Below are positions 1,440-64,000 of a stretch of 64,000 bases of DNA, one piece after another. Both the position numbers and the translations under genes were made by a program. The notes beneath the pieces were generated by a model, which was given only the letters and a program-made list of their open reading frames with translations, did no database searches and was not told the DNA's origin. Origin of the DNA: Candidatus Saccharimonadia bacterium (lineage in GTDB: Bacteria; Patescibacteriota; Saccharimonadia; Saccharimonadales; 2-12-FULL-41-12); assembly GCA_963717365.1 (NCBI GenBank), contig OY970327.1:395599-459598 (forward strand), given 5' to 3'. Each line of letters begins with the position of its first letter. The first letter of the stretch is position 1.

Positions 1440-1642
1440 TATGGTATACTAATGGCTAGTTACCGAAGACAGTAGCGATGTTTACCGCAAGGCAAATATT
1501 TAAGAATGCTACCGAGGAATACAATAACACGTATTTTATTAGTCTTTGGTTGCTGCCAGAGACTTTTTTAATGGTCGGTGCGGTCATCTGGAAAAAATAG
1601 GACGTTTAAGTAAGTCCTATAAAGTAATCAAAAAGGTATAAC
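1440..1642 (+). promoter_or_regulatory. putative rplJ (L10) autoregulatory leader
   Basis: ~200-nt untranslated stretch immediately upstream of rplJ that contains an intrinsic-terminator hairpin. L10(L12)4-binding leaders upstream of rplJ are established in many bacteria. Homology was not tested. Confidence 0.35.
1542..1569 (+). terminator. attenuator-type hairpin within the rplJ leader
   Basis: GTCTTTGG (1542-1549) pairs with CCAGAGAC (1556-1563), including one G-U pair. The loop is TTGCTG and TTTTTT follows at 1564-1569, ~75 nt before the rplJ start. Confidence 0.5.
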
Positions 1643-16725: not shown

Positions 16726-16800
16726 TGGGGCGTCGCCAAGTGGTAAGGCACCAGTTTTTGGTACTGGCATTCGGGGGTTCGAATCCCTCCGCCCCAGCCA
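16726..16800 (+). tRNA. tRNA-Gln (anticodon TTG), CCA encoded
   Basis: Hand-folded cloverleaf: TGGGGCG/CGCCCCA acceptor (U1:A72), anticodon arm CCAGT-TTTTGGT-ACTGG, T arm GGGGG-TTCGAAT-CCCTC, G73-CCA. It is close to the E. coli tRNA-Gln pattern. Confidence 0.9.
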
Positions 16801-54917: not shown

Positions 54918-54966
54918 CATTTACAGAAATCAATCTGTTAGTTAGAATAAGTAAGTTCAGATATAT

Positions 54967-55270
54967 TCCGGGGTAGCTCAGCGGTAGAGCGGGTGGCTGT
55001 GAATACGCAGCCTGATTTGGGCAACCAATCAGTGAAAATAGGGTGAATTGCGGGAAGCCTACGTGCAATTGCATATGGTAATCCGCAGCCAAGCCAGGAT
55101 TAGGTTAAAAGATCCAGGAAGGTTCAGAGACTAGAGGGTGAGCCTAACAATAATCTCTCAGACAGCGCCCTACATCCTTGCAAAGGATGATGATATAGTC
55201 CACGCCACTATGAAAGTAGTGAATAAGTGTAACCACTAGGTCGAAGGTTCGAATCCTTTCCCCGGAGCCA
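54967..55270 (+). tRNA. tRNA-Asn (anticodon GTT) interrupted by a group I intron; exons 54967-55000 and 55230-55270, CCA encoded
   Basis: The joined exons give a 75-nt cloverleaf: TCCGGGG/CCCCGGA acceptor, GCTC-AGCGGTA-GAGC D arm, GGTGG-CTGTTAA-CCACT anticodon arm, GAAGG-TTCGAAT-CCTTT T arm, G73-CCA. Confidence 0.8.
55001..55229 (+). ncRNA. group I (self-splicing type) intron in the tRNA-Asn anticodon loop
   Basis: Conserved core blocks AATTGCGGGAAGCC (55046-59), TAATCCGCAGCCAAGCC (55079-95), GGTTCAGAGACTAGA (55121-35) and GATATAGTCC (55192-201). P1 has a U-G pair at the 5' splice site and the terminal base is G at 55229. P2, P8 and P9 hairpins are present. Confidence 0.8.
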
Positions 55271-56707
55271 AGAAATGAATTCCTGATGTTCAGCCATTAA
55301 ATTGAATGGCGAATTGAACTCCCACAGGAGTTCTTTTCTTTTTAAGCGCAAGTTCGAGAGTACCATTTCTACTAACATCCGTTTCTGCTCAATGTTCGCT
55401 CTTTGAAACAATTCTGGGGCGTTTTTTGATAGCTTGAACAGATGAGTGACTGTTCCATAGTAGTCATCTTCTACAAGTTCTAGATTTACACGCTTATTCT
55501 GCAATGACTTCTGGGAATGTCTGTATTCTTCAAATTTTCGGTCATATAGGCTTTCTGGAATCTTTTCATCCAGGTAATCCTCATATACTTTTTCAATACG
55601 AGTTTGATACTTTTCTATTTCAACGTCTAGGTTCATCAAAGTAGTTTCACGTACGCGTTTTTTGTCCTCGTGAGAGCTTCGTAGAGCCTCGCTAACTTGC
55701 TTATATGCTTCAGGCGGAATCTGTATGCTCTTGAAAGCTTTCATTAATTGTTGGGTCAGTAAATCTTCGGATACGTAAGCTATCTTGTGCTTGGCTTTGC
55801 CAAGTGTACAGTGGCCGTAAATATAGAGACCTTTCTTCCGTTCAAAAGTTACTCGGCACCCACATTCGGCACATTTAATTAATCCTCGATACACAAACGG
55901 TAGTCCTGCCCAACGATACTTTTTGATATTGAAGCCTTTGCGAATGCTATCTGCTTGATCAAACAAGTCTTTTGAAATTATTGGTTCGTACTTATGAGTG
56001 TATAGTTCGCCTTTAACCCGCATGTCTCCATGGTAGAAAGGGTTTTGAAGTAATGCGTCTAGCTGACTTCTGGATAGACTTAAACCATAGGATTCATTCC
56101 AATTCTTGCTCAATTCTTTAACCGATATAACTCCTGAAGCGTATTGAGTGAATGCGTCCCTAATTGCGTCAGCCTTAAAAGCGTCAGGTTCTATCCATTT
56201 CTTACCATTTGGCAACACAGTGTTTCTATAACCAAAGGGAGCCATACCAGCCCATTCGCCGTCACGCCACTTCTGCTCAAACCGGCGTTTTACATTGTCA
56301 CTTATTGCGTCTGAATAGTATTGAGCGACAACAATACCCATACCCAGACGTAATAGGTCTGTTGCCGGAGAGAACTGATTGATAAACAAATTGTCTGATG
56401 GAAAGTGAAGCTCAATTTTTCCGCCACGATACAAACTTTGCAGAATCCTTACTTCTTCCGAACTACTATCTCTTGTATACCTATCTATTTTGTCAAAAAC
56501 GACTATGGCTTTTTCATTCCAGTTTTTGATTTCATCAACCACGTTTTTGAATTCATCCCGATTGCCCTTATAGGCGCTTTCTTTGAGTTCAAACAGTTGA
56601 AAGTCATAATCCCTCCGTTTGGCATACTCTAATAATCGGTGGGTTTGCGCTGGAAGCGCGTCTTTCTGGTCGTCAGTAGATACTCTGGCTAATAGATAAG
56701 CTTTCAT
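55208..56707 (-). CDS. large serine recombinase (integrase)
   Basis: N-terminal resolvase catalytic motif YLLARVSTDDQ, a recombinase domain, a Cys-rich zinc ribbon (CAECGCRVTF...GHC) and a coiled-coil C-terminus. The last 20 codons are antisense to the tRNA-Asn 3' exon and the intron end. Confidence 0.9.
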   Translation of the reverse strand: MKAYLLARVSTDDQKDALPAQTHRLLEYAKRRDYDFQLFELKESAYKGNRDEFKNVVDEIKNWNEKAIVVFDKIDRYTRDSSSEEVRILQSLYRGGKIELHFPSDNLFINQFSPATDLLRLGMGIVVAQYYSDAISDNVKRRFEQKWRDGEWAGMAPFGYRNTVLPNGKKWIEPDAFKADAIRDAFTQYASGVISVKELSKNWNESYGLSLSRSQLDALLQNPFYHGDMRVKGELYTHKYEPIISKDLFDQADSIRKGFNIKKYRWAGLPFVYRGLIKCAECGCRVTFERKKGLYIYGHCTLGKAKHKIAYVSEDLLTQQLMKAFKSIQIPPEAYKQVSEALRSSHEDKKRVRETTLMNLDVEIEKYQTRIEKVYEDYLDEKIPESLYDRKFEEYRHSQKSLQNKRVNLELVEDDYYGTVTHLFKLSKNAPELFQRANIEQKRMLVEMVLSNLRLKRKELLWEFNSPFNLMAEHQEFISWLRGKDSNLRPSGYTYSLLS

Positions 56708-56852
56708 TTTCTCTCCCTTACTAAAAATGGACGGTTGCCGCTTTTCCAGTCCAACAAGCCGAAGCCGTCTTTCTGAAGCAACCGCCCATTAAGAGCAGAA
56801 AATAAAAACAGCCCGACATATAGTTGAATTGGAAAAGCACTATCATTATATC

Positions 56853-57365
56853 TCATACGCTTCGCTTCTTAATTAACTCGTTATATTTTTGCTTATAATT
56901 TTCACGATTTATGCTTTCTTTTAAATCTATTTCTTTGTCTTTAATACCCCCCAACTTTTGGGGAGGGTAAGCGGAATTATTGGGTACCCCCCTCACCGTT
57001 TTTTGGAGAGGGGTGTGGGTACTTTCTTCCATGTTATCCAACACTTTAACTAAACCATTCCATGTATGGCGGTATGATTCTCCTGAAATAAGTTTTCTTT
57101 CGATAAATGATTTTTCTTCTAAACCCTTAAGTGCCTTTTTAACTGTTTTGATATCGGCACCCATTTCATTAGCAATTCTTTGATGACGAAGCTTTTTGTT
57201 TTCGCCATATGAAATAACGATTAGTAATACAATAGCTTCGGATTTGCCAAGGTTTAGTTTTCCGAGATTTCTTAACAATTTATTTGGAATCTGAGTGTAA
57301 TAATGAAGTGCAGTATATGGACCCCATTTCCGCTCAAAGGTTTTTGAGGATTTTACAAATGTCAT
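56853..57365 (-). CDS. winged-helix/HTH DNA-binding protein (possible replication or regulatory function)
   Basis: The central segment QRIANEMGADIKTVKKALKGLEEKSFIER resembles a wHTH. The assignment is tentative. Confidence 0.55.
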   Translation of the reverse strand: MTFVKSSKTFERKWGPYTALHYYTQIPNKLLRNLGKLNLGKSEAIVLLIVISYGENKKLRHQRIANEMGADIKTVKKALKGLEEKSFIERKLISGESYRHTWNGLVKVLDNMEESTHTPLQKTVRGVPNNSAYPPQKLGGIKDKEIDLKESINRENYKQKYNELIKKRSV

Positions 57366-57622
57366 CAGATTATCTCGTATTCCACCAATACATCTCGCAC
57401 CGCGTCTTCAATCAGTAAACCAAGTTCGTGTTTAACAGGATGACAAAGGTCTACATTCTTTTTTCGAGGGTAAACAAGTCGTATTCCACCGTGCGGGCGA
57501 GTGTGGATACCAACACCCCCGATGAACAGAGCGTCAAAAAGCACAAAACTCGCAAAAGCTATCAGTCCAAATTTAGGTCTGATTGGAACGATTTCTATTT
57601 CAGATATTATCGGTGTTTCCAC
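57365..57622 (-). CDS. SpoVG-like protein
   Basis: 85 aa. By-eye alignment to SpoVG: GLIAFASFVLFDALFIGGVGIH...LVYPRK....CHPV..EL...IEDAV. Confidence 0.55.
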   Translation of the reverse strand: METPIISEIEIVPIRPKFGLIAFASFVLFDALFIGGVGIHTRPHGGIRLVYPRKKNVDLCHPVKHELGLLIEDAVRDVLVEYEII

Positions 57623-57741
57623 TTGAATTGCTTTCTATGGTCGCAAGCAATTCAAAGAAGCTGACTAATTTTTCTATCACATCTTCTTCACTTCCTGCGG
57701 ACATACAGAAAGTAAATCAAAATTAAAAGTCAGAGATATCT

Positions 57742-58293
57742 CTAACTTATTTTGGGAATTTTGCTCTGATGTTTTCTGGAAAAGTAAAATTCTTTAGTTG
57801 TGACTACGAATATCGTACCAAGCCTATATTTCAAATCAATCTTAGTCTGAATTCGTGAAACTGTGAGTGATATTGCTTTAGGACTCTTAAAGTCTCTCCG
57901 TTCATTTTGGAATTTCTCAAATACGTCTCCAACCTGGAATTTCTTTTTGTGTGGTCGTCCGTCCTTTTTCTTAAACATAATTGAAAGGATATCCGCTTCT
58001 TTACCCTCAAAATGCATTGATAAATTTCGCTGAAAATATAAATCTTGTTTCTTGTGATCGTAGCGCAGAAGAAACCCTCTTTTAGGAATATAAGCAAAAT
58101 ATGAAACTGTTTCCTCTAATTCATCTAATTTTAAGTTGTTTTTCCTTGTTTCTTTGATTAAATCATCAAGCTTTCCGATGATCGTCACATAGGCATGGAA
58201 ATCATTATTCAGTAAACGCCTTATGTCGTTTTCTTCCGGCGAACCAAAAGGGTCGTTATTCTCAGAATCTTTCATCACATCTTCCTTATACAA
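57742..58293 (-). CDS. hypothetical protein with a possible OmpR/PhoB-type winged-helix C-terminus
   Basis: The C-terminal EADILSIMFKK...ISLTVSRIQTKI pattern resembles the trans_reg_C wing. Weak. Confidence 0.5.
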   Translation of the reverse strand: MYKEDVMKDSENNDPFGSPEENDIRRLLNNDFHAYVTIIGKLDDLIKETRKNNLKLDELEETVSYFAYIPKRGFLLRYDHKKQDLYFQRNLSMHFEGKEADILSIMFKKKDGRPHKKKFQVGDVFEKFQNERRDFKSPKAISLTVSRIQTKIDLKYRLGTIFVVTTKEFYFSRKHQSKIPKIS

Positions 58294-58335
58294 TCAGTAT
58301 AGGGGTATTCACTAAATAAACGGGAGAAAAAGTAA

Positions 58336-58545
58336 ATGATTATCTCAATTAAAGAAGCACGTAAGATTCTTGGCAATATAGCCAATACCATGACAGACAA
58401 GCAGATTGAAGAATTAGTCGAGACGCTTGATGTACTAGCCGTACAGGCATTAAAAATTGCGCGAGAAAAACGTATAAAAGAAGATGCTCAGGCATTGGCC
58501 GAGCTGACCTATGACATATACACAGATAAAAACGACAATTCTTAA
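58336..58545 (+). CDS. small hypothetical helical protein
   Basis: 69-aa ORF with a good RBS (GGGAGAAAAAGTAA-ATG), divergent from 57742-58293. Confidence 0.45.
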   Translation: MIISIKEARKILGNIANTMTDKQIEELVETLDVLAVQALKIAREKRIKEDAQALAELTYDIYTDKNDNS

Positions 58546-58603
58546 GTGTTATTCTCAAGCGTAAGCATTATGAAAACCAAGCACCATTGGTTAACATTAA
58601 GTC

Positions 58604-60730
58604 ATGAGAGTTGACTTTCACTGCCATACAAAAAAGGTAAAATCGGGCGAAGTTGCCACGCGTAATGTCACGCCAGAATTATTTGCAGAAAAAGTACGAA
58701 ATGCAGACGTAAAAATCGTAGCCATCACTAACCATAACGTATTCGATACTACCCAGTACAACGAGCTAGCTACTGCTGCTGGAGATGATTGCCAAGTATG
58801 GCCTGGTATCGAGCTTAATATTAATGGAAGTAATGGAAAGCAATGGCACTTGATAGTAGTAAGTAATCCTGAAACAGTGAGCGACTTCTATGACATTGTA
58901 TCTAAACTGACACACGGAGTTAGTCCGGAAGACTGTTATCTTGATATAGAAAATGTGGTGAGTGGCTTGTCGAGCATTGAATGCTTTTATTTACCTCACT
59001 ATCATAAAAGTCCTGAAATATCCGAAGAAGATTCTAAGAAGCTACTGGAGCTGGTAGGCGAAAGCTTTAAGATACTTAACGAAACCTCTGACATCAGATC
59101 AATGGGAGTTTTTGCTAATCACAACACGCGCGTTATCGTCGGAAGTGACGTAAAAGACTGGAATGACTACGAAGAGTCGTCATTTTCAGAGTTAAGGCTA
59201 CCCGTTGAAAGTTTTCATCAGCTTTATATGTTAGCAAAACGTGATCCACAAGTGGTAACTAGCCTTTTGGATAAGAACGATTCAAGGAGCTTAACGATAA
59301 ATTTTGCAGAAAAAGTAAAACTAGACCTCAAGCTATATAAAGAAGTTAACGTAGTTTTTGGCCCTAAAGGCACTGGCAAAAGTGAAATCCTTAAAGCAGT
59401 ACAGGAGACATTTGAAAAACAGGGCTACAGCTGCTGCGTATATCGCGGAAGCGAGAAGGACAGCCAATTCAATCAGCTATTGTCTGCTGACGACATGATG
59501 AGACACGTGGGCAAAGTGAACGCACTATCTTGCGAAGATCACTTTCAGGCTATTAAAGACTGGGAAGACAAAAGCCCCACACCAATACAGGATTATGTTC
59601 AATGGATTAACACCAAGGACATTAATGCTAATAAACAGCGTATGAAGATTACTCTCGCGAGTACATACCAGCAAGAAGACGGTCAAGAATTTGAGCAGGT
59701 TAAGGAAGATATTAAAAACATCCGCCGAGCAATCCGGGTCTTTAACCGAGTAGATGCCACAAAATACCTTACGTCTGCTGATTCAAAACAACTTGATACA
59801 CTTCTCGCTCGACTCGAAGATTTAATCGCAAATAAGTATCGCGATGAGCTTATCAATGTGTACGCTTCACAATTTAGTAACTGGAGTATCGAGATAATAA
59901 AGCGTCTCACTGATAAAAAAACGAATACCGTGTCGCGTCCTGGCACAACGGGATTTAGCCCTTTTGCGGCTAACCGCATAAAGCTACATCGGAGTGTCCA
60001 ATCAATCTTAAATAACATCAACGGCAAAGAGGTACGTGAGCGAAAATCGATTGGTAGCCTTGAAAGTAAGGGTAATGTTTATATTCAGTCGCGGTACAGG
60101 ATGTGCTGTAGTGAATCCAGGAGCGGGGAGTTCGGGGACAAAAAAGTTACGGATATTAAAAATGCGTTAAAACTATTGGGGGGCGTTAAAGAGAACTACT
60201 GTAGTGAGGATATCTACCATCAAGTTAGCACCTTATCGGATGAGCTGGAAACTACAGGCGTTAACTCCACCGAGCAATTCCTAGGACTTTCGAAAGAAGT
60301 TATCTTATCGAATGGCGAGGAGTATAAGCCCTCAAATGGGGAGAAGTCTATCCTCATGATGCAAAAAGTTCTAGGCGAAGATAAGGACGTATATATCTTT
60401 GACGAACCTGAACTTGGAATGGGCAACTCCTATATAGACAAGAATATTCGTCCGAAAATATCCAATTTAGGCAAGAGTAACAAAACGGTGGTCATAGCGA
60501 CACACAATGCCAATATTGCGGTCAGGACGTTACCTTATGCAACCATCTTCCGAGACCATGATAATGGTGTTTATAAAACATACATTGGCAATCCGTTTAT
60601 CAACTCCCTGATCAATATAAGAGATGATAATGATGTAATAAGCTGGAAAGAAACAAGTATGACGGTACTCGAAGGGGGTGTTGAAGCATTTTACGAAAGA
60701 AAGGATATTTATGAGTCAAGAAATAATTAA
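58604..60730 (+). CDS. PHP-domain phosphoesterase fused to an ABC/SMC-type ATPase (Ppl-like candidate defence protein)
   Basis: PHP ligand pattern FHCHT, ITNH, GIE, HLIV, PHYH, GSDVKDW. ATPase motifs GPKGTGKSE (Walker A), SNGEKS (signature-like), VYIFDEPELGMG (Walker B/D-loop) and ATHN (H-loop). Confidence 0.85.
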   Translation: MRVDFHCHTKKVKSGEVATRNVTPELFAEKVRNADVKIVAITNHNVFDTTQYNELATAAGDDCQVWPGIELNINGSNGKQWHLIVVSNPETVSDFYDIVSKLTHGVSPEDCYLDIENVVSGLSSIECFYLPHYHKSPEISEEDSKKLLELVGESFKILNETSDIRSMGVFANHNTRVIVGSDVKDWNDYEESSFSELRLPVESFHQLYMLAKRDPQVVTSLLDKNDSRSLTINFAEKVKLDLKLYKEVNVVFGPKGTGKSEILKAVQETFEKQGYSCCVYRGSEKDSQFNQLLSADDMMRHVGKVNALSCEDHFQAIKDWEDKSPTPIQDYVQWINTKDINANKQRMKITLASTYQQEDGQEFEQVKEDIKNIRRAIRVFNRVDATKYLTSADSKQLDTLLARLEDLIANKYRDELINVYASQFSNWSIEIIKRLTDKKTNTVSRPGTTGFSPFAANRIKLHRSVQSILNNINGKEVRERKSIGSLESKGNVYIQSRYRMCCSESRSGEFGDKKVTDIKNALKLLGGVKENYCSEDIYHQVSTLSDELETTGVNSTEQFLGLSKEVILSNGEEYKPSNGEKSILMMQKVLGEDKDVYIFDEPELGMGNSYIDKNIRPKISNLGKSNKTVVIATHNANIAVRTLPYATIFRDHDNGVYKTYIGNPFINSLINIRDDNDVISWKETSMTVLEGGVEAFYERKDIYESRNN

Positions 60731-61043
60731 AGTTGTCCTTTCCCAGCAAGGCGAAAGCGATGTTCTCACATTCGATATTAAAGAAAACGAAAAGGCACAA
60801 GAGTATTTTGTAGATCTTGGTGATTCGGCAAATAGTCAAACTCAACTCAAACGTATCTTTTCGCGACTGCTTACAATTCTCATCGAGAAGGACATCGCAT
60901 TAAAGCTTCAGGTAGAGAAAGGTTTTACGCGTGCGCTTCAACGGGAGGTAAGCAATGAATATATACAAGAATTAAATGAGGAGCTGAAAAAAGTTAAAGA
61001 GTTAATTGCAGAGCAATTAGCTGACGAAGAGTCAGAAAGCTGA
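60711..61043 (+). CDS. small acidic hypothetical protein, translationally coupled to the PHP-ATPase
   Basis: ATG at 60711 is preceded by AAAGGA and overlaps the upstream stop (60730) by 20 nt. About 110 aa, with a helical C-terminus. Confidence 0.55.
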   Translation: MSQEIIKVVLSQQGESDVLTFDIKENEKAQEYFVDLGDSANSQTQLKRIFSRLLTILIEKDIALKLQVEKGFTRALQREVSNEYIQELNEELKKVKELIAEQLADEESES

Positions 61044-61183
61044 CTTAAAGGCTCCTCACCATATAACCAAGGATACTAATCTAGTAATACAGATAGTGGG
61101 TTTTATTATCTGTAATTAGTATGGATTTTGGATACGCATATTGCTATACTCATCATATTATTTATGGTTACTAGAAGTAAAAA

Positions 61184-63025
61184 ATGAGATTCCTTGGAAA
61201 TAAAGACTCGATCTTGCCGGAGATCCGTAGCTTACTTGAAGAAAAGGGATTAACAAAAAAACGTCTCGTATTCTTCGATGCCTTTTGTGGTTCCGGCTCC
61301 GTTGCAAATCATTTTAAAGATGACTTCGACTTAATAATTAACGATCTCTTGGATTGGTGTGTAGTCTACTCAAGAGGTAGACTTTTTGCCGGAGAAATGC
61401 ACTTTCAGAGTCTTGGTTTCGACCCCATTGATTACTTAAATGATTCGCCAAACACGATTGAGGGGTTCTTCTATTCAAATTACTCCCCTGGTGGCTCAAG
61501 TAGAATGTATCTATCAAAACAAAATGCGGGTAGAGTCGACTTTATGCGCGGCCAAATTGAGCTGTGGCATTCAAAAAAACTTTTATCCGGCAACGAGAGA
61601 GACTACCTGCTTGCGTGTTTAATTGAGTCAATATCACTAGTTGCAAATGTGGCAGGAGTATACGGAGCATTTCTCAAGCATTGGGACAACAGAGCATTAA
61701 AGCCACTACGACTAGTTAGAATTGGGAATGAAACCGAGACACATAACAACATCGCATCTTTTAATAAAAAACTGGAGGATATTATTCAGGATGTTACTTG
61801 CGACATACTCTATATTGATCCACCCTATACGCAGAATCAGTATGGCACGCAGTACCATCTGTTACAGACTTTGGTTTTAAACGACAAGCCAACGATCAGT
61901 AAAATTACAGGCTCTCGACCTACTGGCCCCATGAGATCGGACTGGTCTAAAGATTTTAAAGCACATATTCTATTCGATAGCATAGTTGCGAAAACTAAGG
62001 CGAGGTATATCATTTTTAGCTATAGCACCGATGGCTTAATGACGAAAGGCTTTATTGAATCAATCCTTAAACGCTATGGGAAAGAAGAAACCTATCTCTG
62101 CAAAGAACTATCTTACAAGAGATATGGGAACCATAAATCAATTAAGAAAAATGGGCACTCTGAATATCTGTTCTTTGTGGAGAAGAAAGATCCTAAAGAA
62201 ATTGATTATGAATCACCTCTGAACTATATAGGTAGTAAGTCAAAACTGGTCAAGTACATAGAAAAGAACCTGCCTGCTCAATATAATCGTTTTTTTGACC
62301 TGTTTGGCGGTGGATTTAACGTTGGCATAAATATTGATGATAAAGAAGTATTCTATAACGACGCCAATTACTTTGTTAGAGATCTCGTAGAGTCCTTCCA
62401 AAAAAACGACACGTACCAATATCTTCTTTATATCAGGAAGATATCTAGACGGTTTGACCTAAAGGCGTCCTACGCCGAAGGTTTTTTAGCAGCCAGAAAA
62501 TACTATAACTCCCTCCCAGCAAACGTACGTGATCCACGTCTTCTATACACAGTTTTACTGTATGGGTTTCAGCAGCAACTTCGGTTTAATAGCAGGCACG
62601 AATTCAATAATCCTGTCGGTATGAGATGGTTCAACGATAGAGTATTAGCTAAGATGATAAGTTTTTCTAGAAAAATCAAAGAGGGCTCCTTTACATTCTC
62701 TGCGGAAGATTTTTTGAGTCTAGAACCACAAATACTGAAAGGCGACTTCGTTTACATGGATCCGCCCTACAGGCTAACGCGTGGCTCGTATAACGACGGC
62801 AAGCGAGGTTTTGGGGGCTGGGATATTCAGACTGAGCGTAAGTTGCTCGATTTTGCAGATAGGCTTGATAAGAAAGACGCGTTTTTTATGATTTCATATG
62901 TTGTTGAGCATGGGGGTGAATTTAATGACATTGTTAATGCTTGGGTTGCAGACCAAGGATATAAAACCATTGAAATTTCTGCACAGAATATTCGACGAAA
63001 AGAGATTTTAATAGTAAATTACTAA
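61184..63025 (+). CDS. tandem (two-domain) Dam-like N6-adenine DNA methyltransferase, FokI-methylase-like architecture
   Basis: Two complete motif sets: FFDAFCGSGS plus LYIDPPY in the first half, and FFDLFGGGFN plus VYMDPPY in the second half. Confidence 0.88.
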   Translation: MRFLGNKDSILPEIRSLLEEKGLTKKRLVFFDAFCGSGSVANHFKDDFDLIINDLLDWCVVYSRGRLFAGEMHFQSLGFDPIDYLNDSPNTIEGFFYSNYSPGGSSRMYLSKQNAGRVDFMRGQIELWHSKKLLSGNERDYLLACLIESISLVANVAGVYGAFLKHWDNRALKPLRLVRIGNETETHNNIASFNKKLEDIIQDVTCDILYIDPPYTQNQYGTQYHLLQTLVLNDKPTISKITGSRPTGPMRSDWSKDFKAHILFDSIVAKTKARYIIFSYSTDGLMTKGFIESILKRYGKEETYLCKELSYKRYGNHKSIKKNGHSEYLFFVEKKDPKEIDYESPLNYIGSKSKLVKYIEKNLPAQYNRFFDLFGGGFNVGINIDDKEVFYNDANYFVRDLVESFQKNDTYQYLLYIRKISRRFDLKASYAEGFLAARKYYNSLPANVRDPRLLYTVLLYGFQQQLRFNSRHEFNNPVGMRWFNDRVLAKMISFSRKIKEGSFTFSAEDFLSLEPQILKGDFVYMDPPYRLTRGSYNDGKRGFGGWDIQTERKLLDFADRLDKKDAFFMISYVVEHGGEFNDIVNAWVADQGYKTIEISAQNIRRKEILIVNY

Positions 63026-63030
63026 TAATC

Positions 63031-64000
63031 ATGACTCCTCATTTCACCATAAAGAATAAATTTCAAAAACGTCAGGATCAGTACTCGGATTTATTGACCG
63101 AAGATATACTCGCAGACATTTGTTACAGGATAACCGGTCAACGTAACTATACGTGCGACTTTCTTGATGAGGTAAACGTAGGACGACTGGCTACATTGGA
63201 GTACGAGGGCACGATTGCTTACGTATCTTTCTCGGAAGATTCAGTTCACGGTAGGAATTCAAGCTTCCAGAGTCTACCCAGCGCATTTACTCGATACTTC
63301 CTGGATGAACATACCAGCAAACGTATGTGTTTTTACTTCCTCCCAGCAGAAGGCTCGTACGAATCAGCCTATTTCAATTTTATGTATAGGCTAATGAACA
63401 CAGCCGGGATCGAGTTATTAAATCCAGAAAATCATCTCAGCACAGAGATAAATCCGTTCACGTCAGCTGATGACTTGATATTAAGCAGGGATAGTAATAG
63501 ATCAAGAAATCGGAGCAATAACTCCACCTATATAACAAAAGATGAGAATAACAGGGTTCAAGTCTACGGTAAAACTTATGGAGCTAGCAAGAAGGAGACG
63601 ACTCTGCTATGCGTAGCTCTGTCAAGAATATCGAATGATCATATAAATCTGTATCAAATAACGGAGCAAAATCTCACCACCCTCCCAGCACCTGATATGC
63701 AAGTCTTAGAGCAACTTGGAAACATCAATATTGTAATAACTGATATGCGACTCGAAAGAACCGAATTTGAAGCTGACGACAGCCTAAGGTCACCAAGATT
63801 TATATACAACTTATTAGCGAAGCTTGGACCGAAAAAATGTACATTCTGTGATTGTGAGATTCCTGAACTAATACAAGGTGCGCATATCTGGCCTGTTGCC
63901 TCCATCAAACGAGACAGCTCTCTTTCGCTAGAACAAAAGCTAGAGCACGCTATGGATGGTGATAATGGAATATGGCTGTGCGAGAACCATCATAAGCTAC
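63031..64000 (+). CDS. HNH-motif restriction endonuclease candidate; C-terminus beyond the window
   Basis: ATG at 63031, translated by hand and open to 64000. C-terminal CTFCDCEIPELIQGAHIWPV...DGDNGIWLCENHHKL is an HNH/zinc-finger nuclease pattern. Not in the ORF track because it is edge-truncated. Confidence 0.75.
   Translation, partial: MTPHFTIKNKFQKRQDQYSDLLTEDILADICYRITGQRNYTCDFLDEVNVGRLATLEYEGTIAYVSFSEDSVHGRNSSFQSLPSAFTRYFLDEHTSKRMCFYFLPAEGSYESAYFNFMYRLMNTAGIELLNPENHLSTEINPFTSADDLILSRDSNRSRNRSNNSTYITKDENNRVQVYGKTYGASKKETTLLCVALSRISNDHINLYQITEQNLTTLPAPDMQVLEQLGNINIVITDMRLERTEFEADDSLRSPRFIYNLLAKLGPKKCTFCDCEIPELIQGAHIWPVASIKRDSSLSLEQKLEHAMDGDNGIWLCENHHKL

What the first reader, a model, noticed from the sequence alone, without database searches (positions are those of the whole stretch)
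54967..55270. tRNA-Asn(GUU) gene split by a ~229-nt group I intron in the anticodon loop
On the + strand from 54967 the sequence reads TCCGGGG-TA-GCTC-AGCGGTA-GAGC-G-GGTGG-CTGT, then 229 nt, then TAA-CCACT-AGGTC-GAAGG-TTCGAAT-CCTTT-CCCCGGA-G-CCA. Joining the two pieces gives a 75-nt cloverleaf with all four stems intact, two G-U pairs, U1:A72 plus G73 as in bacterial tRNA-Asn, and anticodon GTT. The insert carries the four conserved group I core blocks: AATTGCGGGAAGCC at 55046-55059, TAATCCGCAGCCAAGCC at 55079-55095, GGTTCAGAGACTAGA at 55121-55135 and GATATAGTCC at 55192-55201. These closely resemble the blocks I recall from the cyanobacterial tRNA-Leu and Azoarcus tRNA-Ile introns. I can draw P1 by hand: exon GGCTGT (54995-55000) pairs with GCAGCC (55007-55012) and ends in the canonical U-G pair at the 5' splice site. 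I can also draw P2 (55013-55031, GCAA loop), P3 (55039-45 with 55166-72), P8 (55173-55189) and P9 (55206-55221, GAAA loop). The last intron base is G. Known bacterial tRNA group I introns sit in tRNA-Leu(UAA), fMet, Ile and Arg genes of cyanobacteria and proteobacteria. I do not know of one in tRNA-Asn or in this kind of streamlined genome. About 30 nt between the R block and P3' is an atypical extra segment. A standard tRNA scan would probably miss this gene, which would make tRNA-Asn look absent.
Basis: partly seen in the sequence, partly recalled or inferred. Interest (0 to 1): 0.8.

Follow-up and report, generated by a model that had tools for sequence, protein, structure and literature searches.

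The report
Self-splicing intron inside tRNA-Asn gene
The window holds a real tRNA-Asn(GUU) gene split by a 229-base self-splicing group I intron, but this arrangement has already been published, and spliced in the test tube, for close relatives in the same group of tiny-genome bacteria (Saccharibacteria), so it is a correct but ordinary finding.

Summary
Rfam's group I intron model hits 54965-55222 (+) at 96.4 bits, E=1.3e-23. Joining 54967-55000 to 55230-55270 gives a 75-nt tRNA-Asn(GTT). Default ARAGORN and the Rfam tRNA model both miss it. The Asn junction (anticodon-loop position 35/36) beats the two-base-shifted Thr(UGU) junction that ARAGORN gives in intron mode. It alone keeps the U·G wobble at the 5' splice site (27/27 homologs). 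It keeps a terminal G in 39/40 homologs. It regenerates the loop of intron-less tRNA-Asn genes. I found 47 homologous loci, almost all Candidatus Saccharibacteria MAGs, all in the same gene at the same site. Covariation supports the intron helices (35 pairs changed on both sides) and the cloverleaf across the split (100% paired).

The novelty claim fails. Williams (bioRxiv 2020) listed this intron type. Nakagawa et al. (mSystems 2026) described 35/36 introns in Patescibacteria tRNA-Asn, including the Thr mis-call, and showed in vitro self-splicing of an intron 80% identical to this one. The "atypical" 30 nt is a conserved hairpin between P7 and P3', which fits their IA rather than IC3 classification.

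In passing: a serine-recombinase defence island abuts the tRNA's 3' end.

The parts
54920..54948 (+). Promoter-like site (TTTACA, 17-nt spacer, TAGAAT), ending 19 nt upstream of the tRNA start.
   Evidence: Consensus scan, 10 of 12 matches. The number of sites found is no higher than in shuffled sequence, so this is suggestive only.
54967..55000 (+). tRNA-Asn 5' exon: acceptor 5' strand, D arm, anticodon-stem 5' strand, and loop bases C32 U33 G34 U35.
   Evidence: The identical 34-nt exon occurs in many Saccharibacteria loci.
55001..55229 (+). Group I intron, 229 nt, with no ORF, inserted between anticodon positions 35 and 36.
   Evidence: RF00028 at 96.4 bits, E=1.3e-23. It is 80.4% identical to the in-vitro-spliced GCA_016700035.1 intron.
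54995..55012 (+). P1: exon GGCUGU (54995-55000) pairs with the internal guide GCAGCC (55007-55012). U55000·G55007 is the wobble pair at the 5' splice site.
   Evidence: The U·G pair and the four inner pairs are present in 27/27 sequences. The outermost pair is present in only 18/27.
55013..55031 (+). P2 hairpin with a GCAA tetraloop.
   Evidence: All 7 pairs show changes on both sides.
55040..55045 (+). P3 5' strand, pairing with 55166-55171.
   Evidence: 99.4% of cells paired; one pair covaries.
55049..55087 (+). P4 (55049-55054 with 55082-55087) enclosing P5/P5a (55057-55079).
   Evidence: P4 is 100% paired with one covarying pair. In P5/P5a, 4 pairs covary.
55088..55123 (+). P6 and P6a. In the window, P6a carries one A·A mismatch.
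   Evidence: All 7 P6a pairs covary.
55127..55133 (+). P7 5' strand (G, bulged A, GACUA), pairing with 55196-55201. By analogy with other group I introns this is the guanosine-binding helix.
   Evidence: 100% paired but invariant, and the 5' strand was part of my search pattern, so this gives no independent comparative support.
55134..55159 (+). Extra hairpin between P7 and P3' (P7.1-like). The 5-bp stem is 55134-55138 with 55155-55159. The 16-nt loop is UGAGCCUAACAAUAAU.
   Evidence: 4 of 5 stem pairs covary and 99.3% of cells are paired. The same hairpin is present in tRNA-Asn introns that the paper's Table S5 labels IA1/IA2, and absent from the IC3 examples there.
55166..55171 (+). P3 3' strand.
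55174..55188 (+). P8 hairpin.
   Evidence: All 5 pairs covary.
55196..55201 (+). P7 3' strand (UAGUCC).
55206..55221 (+). P9 hairpin with a GAAA tetraloop.
   Evidence: All 6 pairs covary.
55229..55229 (+). Terminal guanosine (omega-G) of the intron.
   Evidence: G in 39 of 40 full-length homologs.
55230..55270 (+). tRNA-Asn 3' exon: U36 A37 A38, anticodon-stem 3' strand, variable loop, T arm, acceptor 3' strand, G73 and an encoded CCA.
   Evidence: The cloverleaf across the split is 100% paired with 9 covarying pairs.
55316..55343 (+). Terminator-like hairpin followed by a T run, 46 nt after the tRNA.
   Evidence: Consensus scan. Suggestive only.
55208..56707 (-). Large serine recombinase gene. 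It is not part of the intron. Its last ~21 codons overlap the tRNA 3' exon and intron P9, and it marks an integrated island next to the tRNA gene.
   Evidence: Pfam Resolvase, Recombinase and Zn_ribbon_recom domains. Homologs abut tRNA-Asn in L023, L034, L020 and L046.

Best explanation
This is the tRNA-Asn(GUU) gene of a Saccharimonadia (Candidatus Saccharibacteria, phylum Patescibacteria) genome. It is interrupted between anticodon positions 35 and 36 by a 229-nt group I intron that carries no homing endonuclease gene.

Inferred mechanism, by homology: the precursor is transcribed as one RNA. The intron folds into the P1-P9 core. Exon bases GGCUGU pair with the internal guide GCAGCC, so that U35 forms the U·G wobble that marks the 5' splice site. 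An exogenous guanosine bound at P7 cleaves after U35. The intron's terminal G (55229) then replaces it, and the freed 3'-OH of U35 attacks the 3' splice site. This ligates ...CUGU to UAACC... and yields a 75-nt tRNA with the loop CUGUUAA. P10 is at most 2 bp. The tRNA's own anticodon stem, which covaries across the intron, probably holds the 3' exon in place.

What is shown here: the sequence and structure match, the covariation, the conservation of the junction, and homology to a validated intron. What is inferred: that this particular copy splices, and that it is the cell's only tRNA-Asn gene.
For: - RF00028 full-length hit at 96.4 bits, E=1.3e-23.
- The spliced product is called tRNA-Asn(gtt) by ARAGORN.
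- A pattern scan of GTDB species representatives returned 47 loci. 45 are titled Candidatus Saccharibacteria/Saccharimonadales or simply 'bacterium'; the other two are binned as Anaerolineaceae (L022) and Limnocylindrales (L047). All show the same intron in the same gene.
- On 27 aligned sequences the intron model is 95.1% paired. 35 of 63 pairs change on both sides, and 0 of 500 shuffles reach any measure. Versions with the 3' partner slid by 1-3 columns fall to 35-44% paired.
- The tRNA stems that span the intron are 100% paired, with 9 covarying pairs.
- U·G at the 5' splice site in 27/27 sequences. Terminal G in 39/40.
- The commonest spliced sequence among relatives (23/40) equals the GCA_016700375.1 sequence. 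The paper's Table S3 reports that sequence as 100% identical over 75 nt to an intron-less tRNA-Asn(GTT). The window differs from it only by two compensated T-stem pairs.
- The window intron is 80.4% identical to the GCA_016700035.1 intron. Nakagawa et al. showed that intron self-splices precisely at 35/36, and that a terminal G-to-C mutant fails to produce mature tRNA.
- Upstream synteny (SmpB and the neighbouring gene) is shared with the Saccharibacteria loci.
Against: - No experiment or RNA data exists for this copy.
- P7 and most of P1, P3 and P4 are invariant, so covariation says nothing about them. The P7 5' strand and the P7.1 loop were part of my search pattern, so their invariance among the L-loci is by construction.
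- The window's P6a has an A·A mismatch.
- The T arm differs from that of most relatives and may come from an integrated element, although it still pairs.
- Only 64 kb of the genome is visible, so a second, intron-less tRNA-Asn cannot be excluded.
Confidence: 0.93

Rival explanations
1. The gene is tRNA-Thr(UGU), with the same intron shifted two bases upstream. That places the intron at 54999-55227 (position 33/34) and gives the loop CUUGUAA.
For: ARAGORN in intron mode makes exactly this call. This junction also has a U before the 5' site (U54998) and a G as the last intron base (G55227). The paper reports the same call by ARAGORN and tFind for many homologs.
Against: - U54998 pairs with A55009 (Watson-Crick, 27/27), not with G. 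The U·G wobble sits at U55000·G55007.
- The alternative terminal base is A, not G, in 5 of 40 homologs, for example ...AAAAG|TAAC in L003 and L037.
- The exon body has U1-A72 and G73, and is nearly identical to intron-less tRNA-Asn(GTT) genes whose uninterrupted loop reads CTGTTAA.
- Sequencing of the in vitro product of a homolog showed the 35/36 junction.
Confidence: 0.02
2. The intron copy no longer splices, or needs a protein helper. The gene would then be a pseudogene, or a hybrid left behind by integration of the neighbouring recombinase island.
For: The window's P6a has one A·A mismatch. The T arm is an unusual variant and abuts an integrated element. One homolog (L015, like GCA_016700375.1) even lacks the terminal G.
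Against: - All core blocks, the U·G pair and the terminal G are intact.
- The variant T stem is fully compensated: GAAGG/CCUUU.
- The family is kept under structural constraint in at least 40 species.
- The paper found that intron-bearing and intron-less copies of the same tRNA rarely coexist in one genome, which implies the split genes are the working ones.
Confidence: 0.04

Closest known systems
Group I intron at position 35/36 of tRNA-Asn(GUU) in Saccharimonadia genome GCA_016700035.1 (Nakagawa et al., mSystems 2026, PMC13011429)
   Same: Same host gene, same insertion site and same P1 guide core (GCAGCC). It has the same core blocks and the same extra hairpin with loop UGAGCCYAACAAUAAU. 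The size is similar (234 vs 229 nt) and intron identity is 80.4%. It shows the same ARAGORN mis-call as Thr(UGU) at 33/34.
   Different: It comes from a different species. P2, P5a, P6a, P8 and P9 differ by compensatory changes. The window's T stem is GAAGG/CCUUU rather than GCCGG/CCGGC. Splicing was shown experimentally for that intron, not for this one.
tRNA-Asn 35/36 introns of Cyanobacteriota, Nitrospirota and Bipolaricaulota, labelled IA1/IA2 in Table S5 of the same paper
   Same: Same gene and site. They have the same ...GAGACUAG + hairpin + AGCGCCC arrangement between P7 and P3'.
   Different: They are longer (258-283 nt) and have different peripheral helices. The hairpin loop is related but not identical (UGAGGAGCCC...AAUAA).
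IC3 tRNA introns: Azoarcus tRNA-Ile(CAU) and cyanobacterial/plastid tRNA-Leu(UAA)
   Same: They also sit in the anticodon loop and are small and ORF-less. The P4, P6, P7 and J8/7 sequence blocks are similar. They also carry GNRA loops on P2 and P9 (from my own knowledge of the Azoarcus intron; the Rfam alignment is).
   Different: The insertion sites differ (34/35 and 36/37). In the IC3 examples of Table S5, P3' follows P7 directly with no hairpin. The paper places none of the Patescibacteria tRNA introns in IC.
HNH-ORF-carrying versions of the same tRNA-Asn intron
   Same: Same ribozyme and same site. 9 of the 40 full-length relatives found here carry an ORF of 103-115 aa with a CxxC...CANCHREIH motif in the P1 loop. 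The paper reports HNH genes in four Patescibacteria tRNA-Asn introns.
   Different: The window's intron has no ORF. In my own Pfam scan the HNH match was below threshold (E=0.017, 15.7 bits against a cut-off of 21.4).

Membership tests
Group I intron (Rfam RF00028) | Covariance-model score above the curated gathering threshold | tested here: met
   96.4 bits against 50, E=1.3e-23, model positions 1-253 of 253.
Group I intron (Rfam RF00028) | P1 helix between the 5' exon and the internal guide, ending in a U·G wobble at the 5' splice site | tested here: met
   U55000·G55007. U·G is present in 27/27 homologs and the four inner pairs in 27/27.
Group I intron (Rfam RF00028) | Terminal guanosine (omega-G) before the 3' splice site | tested here: met
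   G55229. G in 39/40 full-length homologs.
Group I intron (Rfam RF00028) | Conserved core helices P3-P9, including the P3/P7 pseudoknot | tested here: met
   95.1% of cells paired and 35 pairs changed on both sides. P2, P6a, P8 and P9 covary at every pair. P7 is 100% paired but invariant, so it is uninformative.
Group I intron (Rfam RF00028) | Guanosine-dependent self-splicing | not testable with these tools
   Shown in vitro for the 80%-identical homolog GCA_016700035.1, with an omega-G-to-C control.
tRNA-Asn(GUU) | Canonical cloverleaf after exon joining | tested here: met
   ARAGORN calls a 75-nt tRNA-Asn(gtt). The stems are 100% paired across 27 sequences, with 9 covarying pairs.
tRNA-Asn(GUU) | Anticodon GUU and discriminator G73 (the Asn identity elements, from my own knowledge of E. 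coli tRNA-Asn identity) | tested here: met
   The loop is CUGUUAA at the 35/36 junction, with G at position 73 and U1-A72.
tRNA-Asn(GUU) | Body matches intron-less tRNA-Asn genes of related genomes | tested here: met
   The commonest relative sequence (23/40) is reported as 100% identical over 75 nt to an intron-less tRNA-Asn(GTT) (Table S3). The window differs at 4 T-stem bases, which form two compensated pairs.
Patescibacteria 35/36 tRNA intron family, subgroup IA (Nakagawa et al.) | Insertion between anticodon positions 35 and 36 of tRNA-Asn or tRNA-Asp | tested here: met
Patescibacteria 35/36 tRNA intron family, subgroup IA (Nakagawa et al.) | Sequence homology to published members | tested here: met
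   68-83% intron identity to all 26 other sequences in A1; the four published Saccharimonadia introns among them are 69.5-80.8% identical.
Patescibacteria 35/36 tRNA intron family, subgroup IA (Nakagawa et al.) | Assignment to IA by subgroup-specific covariance models | not tested
   The subgroup models are not available here. The covarying extra hairpin between P7 and P3' fits IA and matches the introns labelled IA1/IA2 in Table S5.
Subgroup IC3 (Azoarcus / cyanobacterial tRNA introns) | P3' follows P7 directly, with no helix between them | tested here: not met
   A 26-nt hairpin (55134-55159) lies between P7 and P3', and 4 of its 5 pairs covary. The IC3 examples in Table S5 lack it.

The most novel reading that the evidence does not exclude
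The clade-specific hairpin between P7 and P3' (55134-55159) has a near-invariant 16-nt loop. It might be more than a structural brace. It could be a binding site for a protein, a small molecule or another RNA that makes splicing conditional. That would also make the supply of what may be the cell's only tRNA-Asn conditional, giving these regulator-poor bacteria an RNA-level control over translation. My evidence neither supports nor excludes this. The loop is conserved in the five published Saccharimonadia introns, which were found independently of my search pattern. Its invariance among the L-loci is by construction.
Probability: 0.05. Interest if true: 0.6.

Novelty: already known. Interest (0 to 1): 0.15.

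Why it matters
The practical point stands. Standard tRNA scans miss or mis-name this gene, so a genome of this kind looks as if it lacks tRNA-Asn, or gains a false tRNA-Thr. That distorts completeness scores and codon-reading inferences. The point has already been made and tested experimentally (Williams 2020; Nakagawa et al. 2026). This window adds one more orthologous copy. My scan adds 47 species-level examples, all invisible to default ARAGORN. It opens no new question.

Tried and rejected
- **Thr(UGU) at 33/34.** This is ARAGORN's intron-mode call. I rejected it on the U·G wobble, omega-G conservation, the Asn identity elements and the intron-less homologs.
No junction with a U before it and a G at the intron end gives a 7-nt loop with GUG (read).
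- **Long-range pairing between J6/7 GGUUCA (55121-55126) and the hairpin loop UGAGCC (55139-55144).** Six pairs can be drawn. Both strands are invariant in my alignment and both were in the search pattern. More distant tRNA-Asn introns (Bipolaricaulota, Nitrospirota) do not keep the complementarity. I dropped it as unsupported.
- **P10.** At most 2 bp (U55230-A55005, A55231-U55004), and not conserved among relatives.
- **Displaced tRNA 3' fragment (attR) of the recombinase island.** I found none in the window. The island probably runs past base 64000.
- **Exact-product look-up of the SmpB protein** to name the source genome. Nothing on record.
- **The window's own genome** is not among the 47 GTDB-representative hits (best 85-88% identity). 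It is also not in the paper's Table S3 (0 occurrences of its P1 region).
- **Pfam on the intron ORFs of relatives.** No hit at E<=0.01, and only a sub-threshold HNH match at E=0.017.
- **Genes downstream of tRNA-Asn in island-free relatives.** They have no counterpart after the tRNA in the window.

Full report
**1. The observation**

- The 5' exon is 54967-55000 and ends in CTGT.
- The 229-nt insert is 55001-55229 and ends in G.
- The 3' exon is 55230-55270. It starts with TAA and ends with an encoded CCA.

Rfam's group I intron model (RF00028) matches 54965-55222 on the + strand from end to end. The score is 96.4 bits against a gathering score of 50, with E=1.3e-23. It is the only intron hit in the 64-kb window. 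ARAGORN run on the hand-spliced sequence returns a 75-nt tRNA-Asn(gtt) with four intact stems. Default ARAGORN reports only a tRNA-Gln in the whole window, and the Rfam tRNA model does not see the split gene. The observation, and the prediction that a routine scan misses the gene, are both confirmed.

**2. Which junction: Asn or Thr**

ARAGORN in intron mode calls the gene tRNA-Thr(tgt), with the same-length intron shifted two bases upstream. Both junctions have a U before the 5' site and a G as the last intron base, so the choice needs outside evidence.

I scanned one genome per GTDB species for a 32-nt degenerate pattern taken from the intron. That returned 47 loci. 45 are titled Candidatus Saccharibacteria/Saccharimonadales or simply 'bacterium'; the other two are binned as Anaerolineaceae (L022) and Limnocylindrales (L047). 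All of them match the window's split gene. In the 40 loci where both exons are present, the 5' exon ends CTGT and the 3' exon starts TAAC.

Four lines of evidence favour the Asn junction:
- **The U·G wobble.** In the 27-sequence alignment A1, the exon U at the Asn junction pairs with G in 27/27 sequences. The U at the Thr junction pairs with A in 27/27.
- **The terminal G.** The last intron base at the Asn junction is G in 39/40 homologs. At the Thr junction it is A in 5/40, for example ...AAAAG|TAAC in L003 and L037.
- **The tRNA body.** It has U1-A72 and G73.
- **Intron-less homologs.** The commonest spliced sequence among relatives (23/40) is the one the paper's Table S3 reports as 100% identical over 75 nt to an intron-less tRNA-Asn(GTT) gene. 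Only the 35/36 junction regenerates that gene's uninterrupted CTGTTAA loop.

The window's spliced tRNA differs from that sequence only by two compensated T-stem pairs.

**3. Structure**

I projected a hand model onto A1. It contained P1, P2, P3, P4, P5/P5a, P6/P6a, P7 as a pseudoknot, an extra hairpin, P8 and P9.
- 95.1% of 1686 cells form standard pairs.
- 35 of 63 pairs show changes on both sides.
- No shuffle out of 500 reaches any of the five measures.
- Sliding the 3' partners by 1-3 columns drops pairing to 35-44%.
- P2, P6a, P8 and P9 covary at every pair.

P7 and most of P1, P3 and P4 never vary, so they say nothing either way. The P7 5' strand was also fixed by my search pattern.

The tRNA stems, two of which span the intron, are 100% paired with 9 covarying pairs. 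The single-sequence minimum-free-energy fold recovers P1, P2, P3, P4, P5, P8, P9 and the acceptor and T stems, with a z-score of -2.4.

Four of its five pairs covary, and its 16-nt loop is UGAGCCUAACAAUAAU. The loop's invariance among my loci is by construction, because it was in the pattern. It is also present in the five Saccharimonadia introns published independently.

**4. What is known**

A literature search found that this feature is already described.
- **Williams (bioRxiv 2020).** This work expanded bacterial tRNA group I intron types from 4 to 21. Nakagawa et al. cite it for the type "Asn.4Ug" and for its confusion with "Thr.2Ug".
- **Nakagawa et al. [quoted passage not shown] They also report that ARAGORN and tFind often mis-call the tRNA-Asn genes as Thr(UGU) at 33/34. 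The intron of Saccharimonadia genome GCA_016700035.1 self-splices precisely at 35/36 in vitro, and a terminal G-to-C mutant fails to produce mature tRNA.

The window's intron is 80.4% identical to that validated intron over 225 aligned positions, and 68-83% identical to the other members. Its P1 region does not occur in the paper's tables. The best genome hit is 85-88% identical. It is therefore another species' ortholog, not one of the published copies.

Upstream synteny (SmpB and the neighbouring gene) is shared with the Saccharibacteria loci.

**5. Subgroup**

The blocks are indeed similar. However, the paper assigns none of the Patescibacteria tRNA introns to IC, and 25 of 28 position-35/36 introns to IA. 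In its Table S5, tRNA-Asn 35/36 introns from other phyla labelled IA1/IA2 show the same hairpin between P7 and P3'. The IC3 entries there go straight from P7 to P3'. I could not run the subgroup models. The extra hairpin is consistent with IA.

**6. Mechanism**

The mechanism is inferred by homology. P1 presents U35·G. Exogenous guanosine bound at P7 cleaves after U55000. G55229 then enters the same site, and the exons are ligated to give the loop CUGUUAA. P10 is at most 2 bp and is not conserved. The anticodon stem, which covaries across the intron, probably positions the 3' exon. Its two loop-proximal pairs compete with the two outer P1 pairs, and the outermost P1 pair is missing in 9/27 sequences.

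A promoter-like site (54920-54948) and a terminator-like hairpin (55316-55343) bracket the gene. Both are suggestive only.

The window's intron has no ORF. 9 of the 40 full-length relatives carry ORFs of 103-115 aa with a CxxC...CANCHREIH motif in the P1 loop. The HNH match in Pfam is below threshold. The paper reports HNH genes in four such introns.

**7. Verdict**

This is a real feature, correctly read, and an ortholog of a published and experimentally validated intron family. The novelty claim is not supported. Interest is low.

A side observation concerns the region next to the tRNA. A large serine recombinase gene overlaps the tRNA's 3' end and leads into a lower-GC stretch. That stretch holds a candidate defence ATPase and a fused DNA methyltransferase. 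Related recombinases abut tRNA-Asn in four other species. The details are under "noticed in passing".

Noticed in passing
window 55208-63025: A probable integrated island abuts the tRNA-Asn 3' end. It begins with a large serine recombinase (55208-56707, minus strand) whose last ~21 codons overlap the tRNA 3' exon and intron P9. It continues with an HTH/DnaD_N-like protein (56853-57365, minus), a PDC-M49A-like ATPase (58604-60730, plus) and a fused type II DNA methyltransferase (61184-63025, plus). GC is 0.39-0.40 here against about 0.44 upstream. No far-end repeat was found inside the window.
   Followed up: partly
window 55243-55259; L034, L024, L023: The window's T stem is GAAGG/CCTTT. L034 and L024 share it, and L023 has GTAGG/CCTAT. 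Nearly all other relatives have GCTGG/CCAGT. The window, L034 and L023 all carry the homologous recombinase next to the tRNA, so the T arm may be supplied by the integrated element. The link is imperfect: L024 shows no recombinase hit, and L020 and L046, which have distant recombinases, keep the common stem.
   Followed up: partly
L039 57-88 and 3359-3983: A 26-nt copy of the tRNA-Asn 3' end (TGGTTCGAATCCAGTCCCCGGAGCCA) lies 3.3 kb downstream of the intron-bearing tRNA-Asn on the same strand. This is what an island flanked by a tRNA-end repeat would look like, and it suggests the gene is a recurrent integration site in this lineage.
   Followed up: no
L015 5908-6238 (same as GCA_016700375.1 in the paper's Table S3): This homolog's intron ends ...GATAAGCA|TAACC, so the last base at the 35/36 junction is A, not G. 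tFind calls it Met(CAT) at 33/34. Whether and where it splices is unclear.
   Followed up: no
L001, L024, L025, L027, L028, L033, L034, L038, L039: In these relatives the same intron is 540-557 nt long. It carries an ORF of 103-115 aa in the P1 loop with a CxxC...CANCHREIH (HNH-like) motif. The Pfam HNH match is below threshold (E=0.017). L040 and L011 have 333-343-nt introns with no ORF, possibly decayed remnants.
   Followed up: partly
L001-L047: Default ARAGORN reports no tRNA at all in any of the 47 related loci, although each holds this split tRNA-Asn gene or part of it.
   Followed up: yes
window 1445-1578 and 16726-16800: There is a ribosomal protein L10 leader (Rfam, 59.9 bits) and an ordinary tRNA-Gln(ttg). 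These are the only other RNA features found in the window.
   Followed up: no
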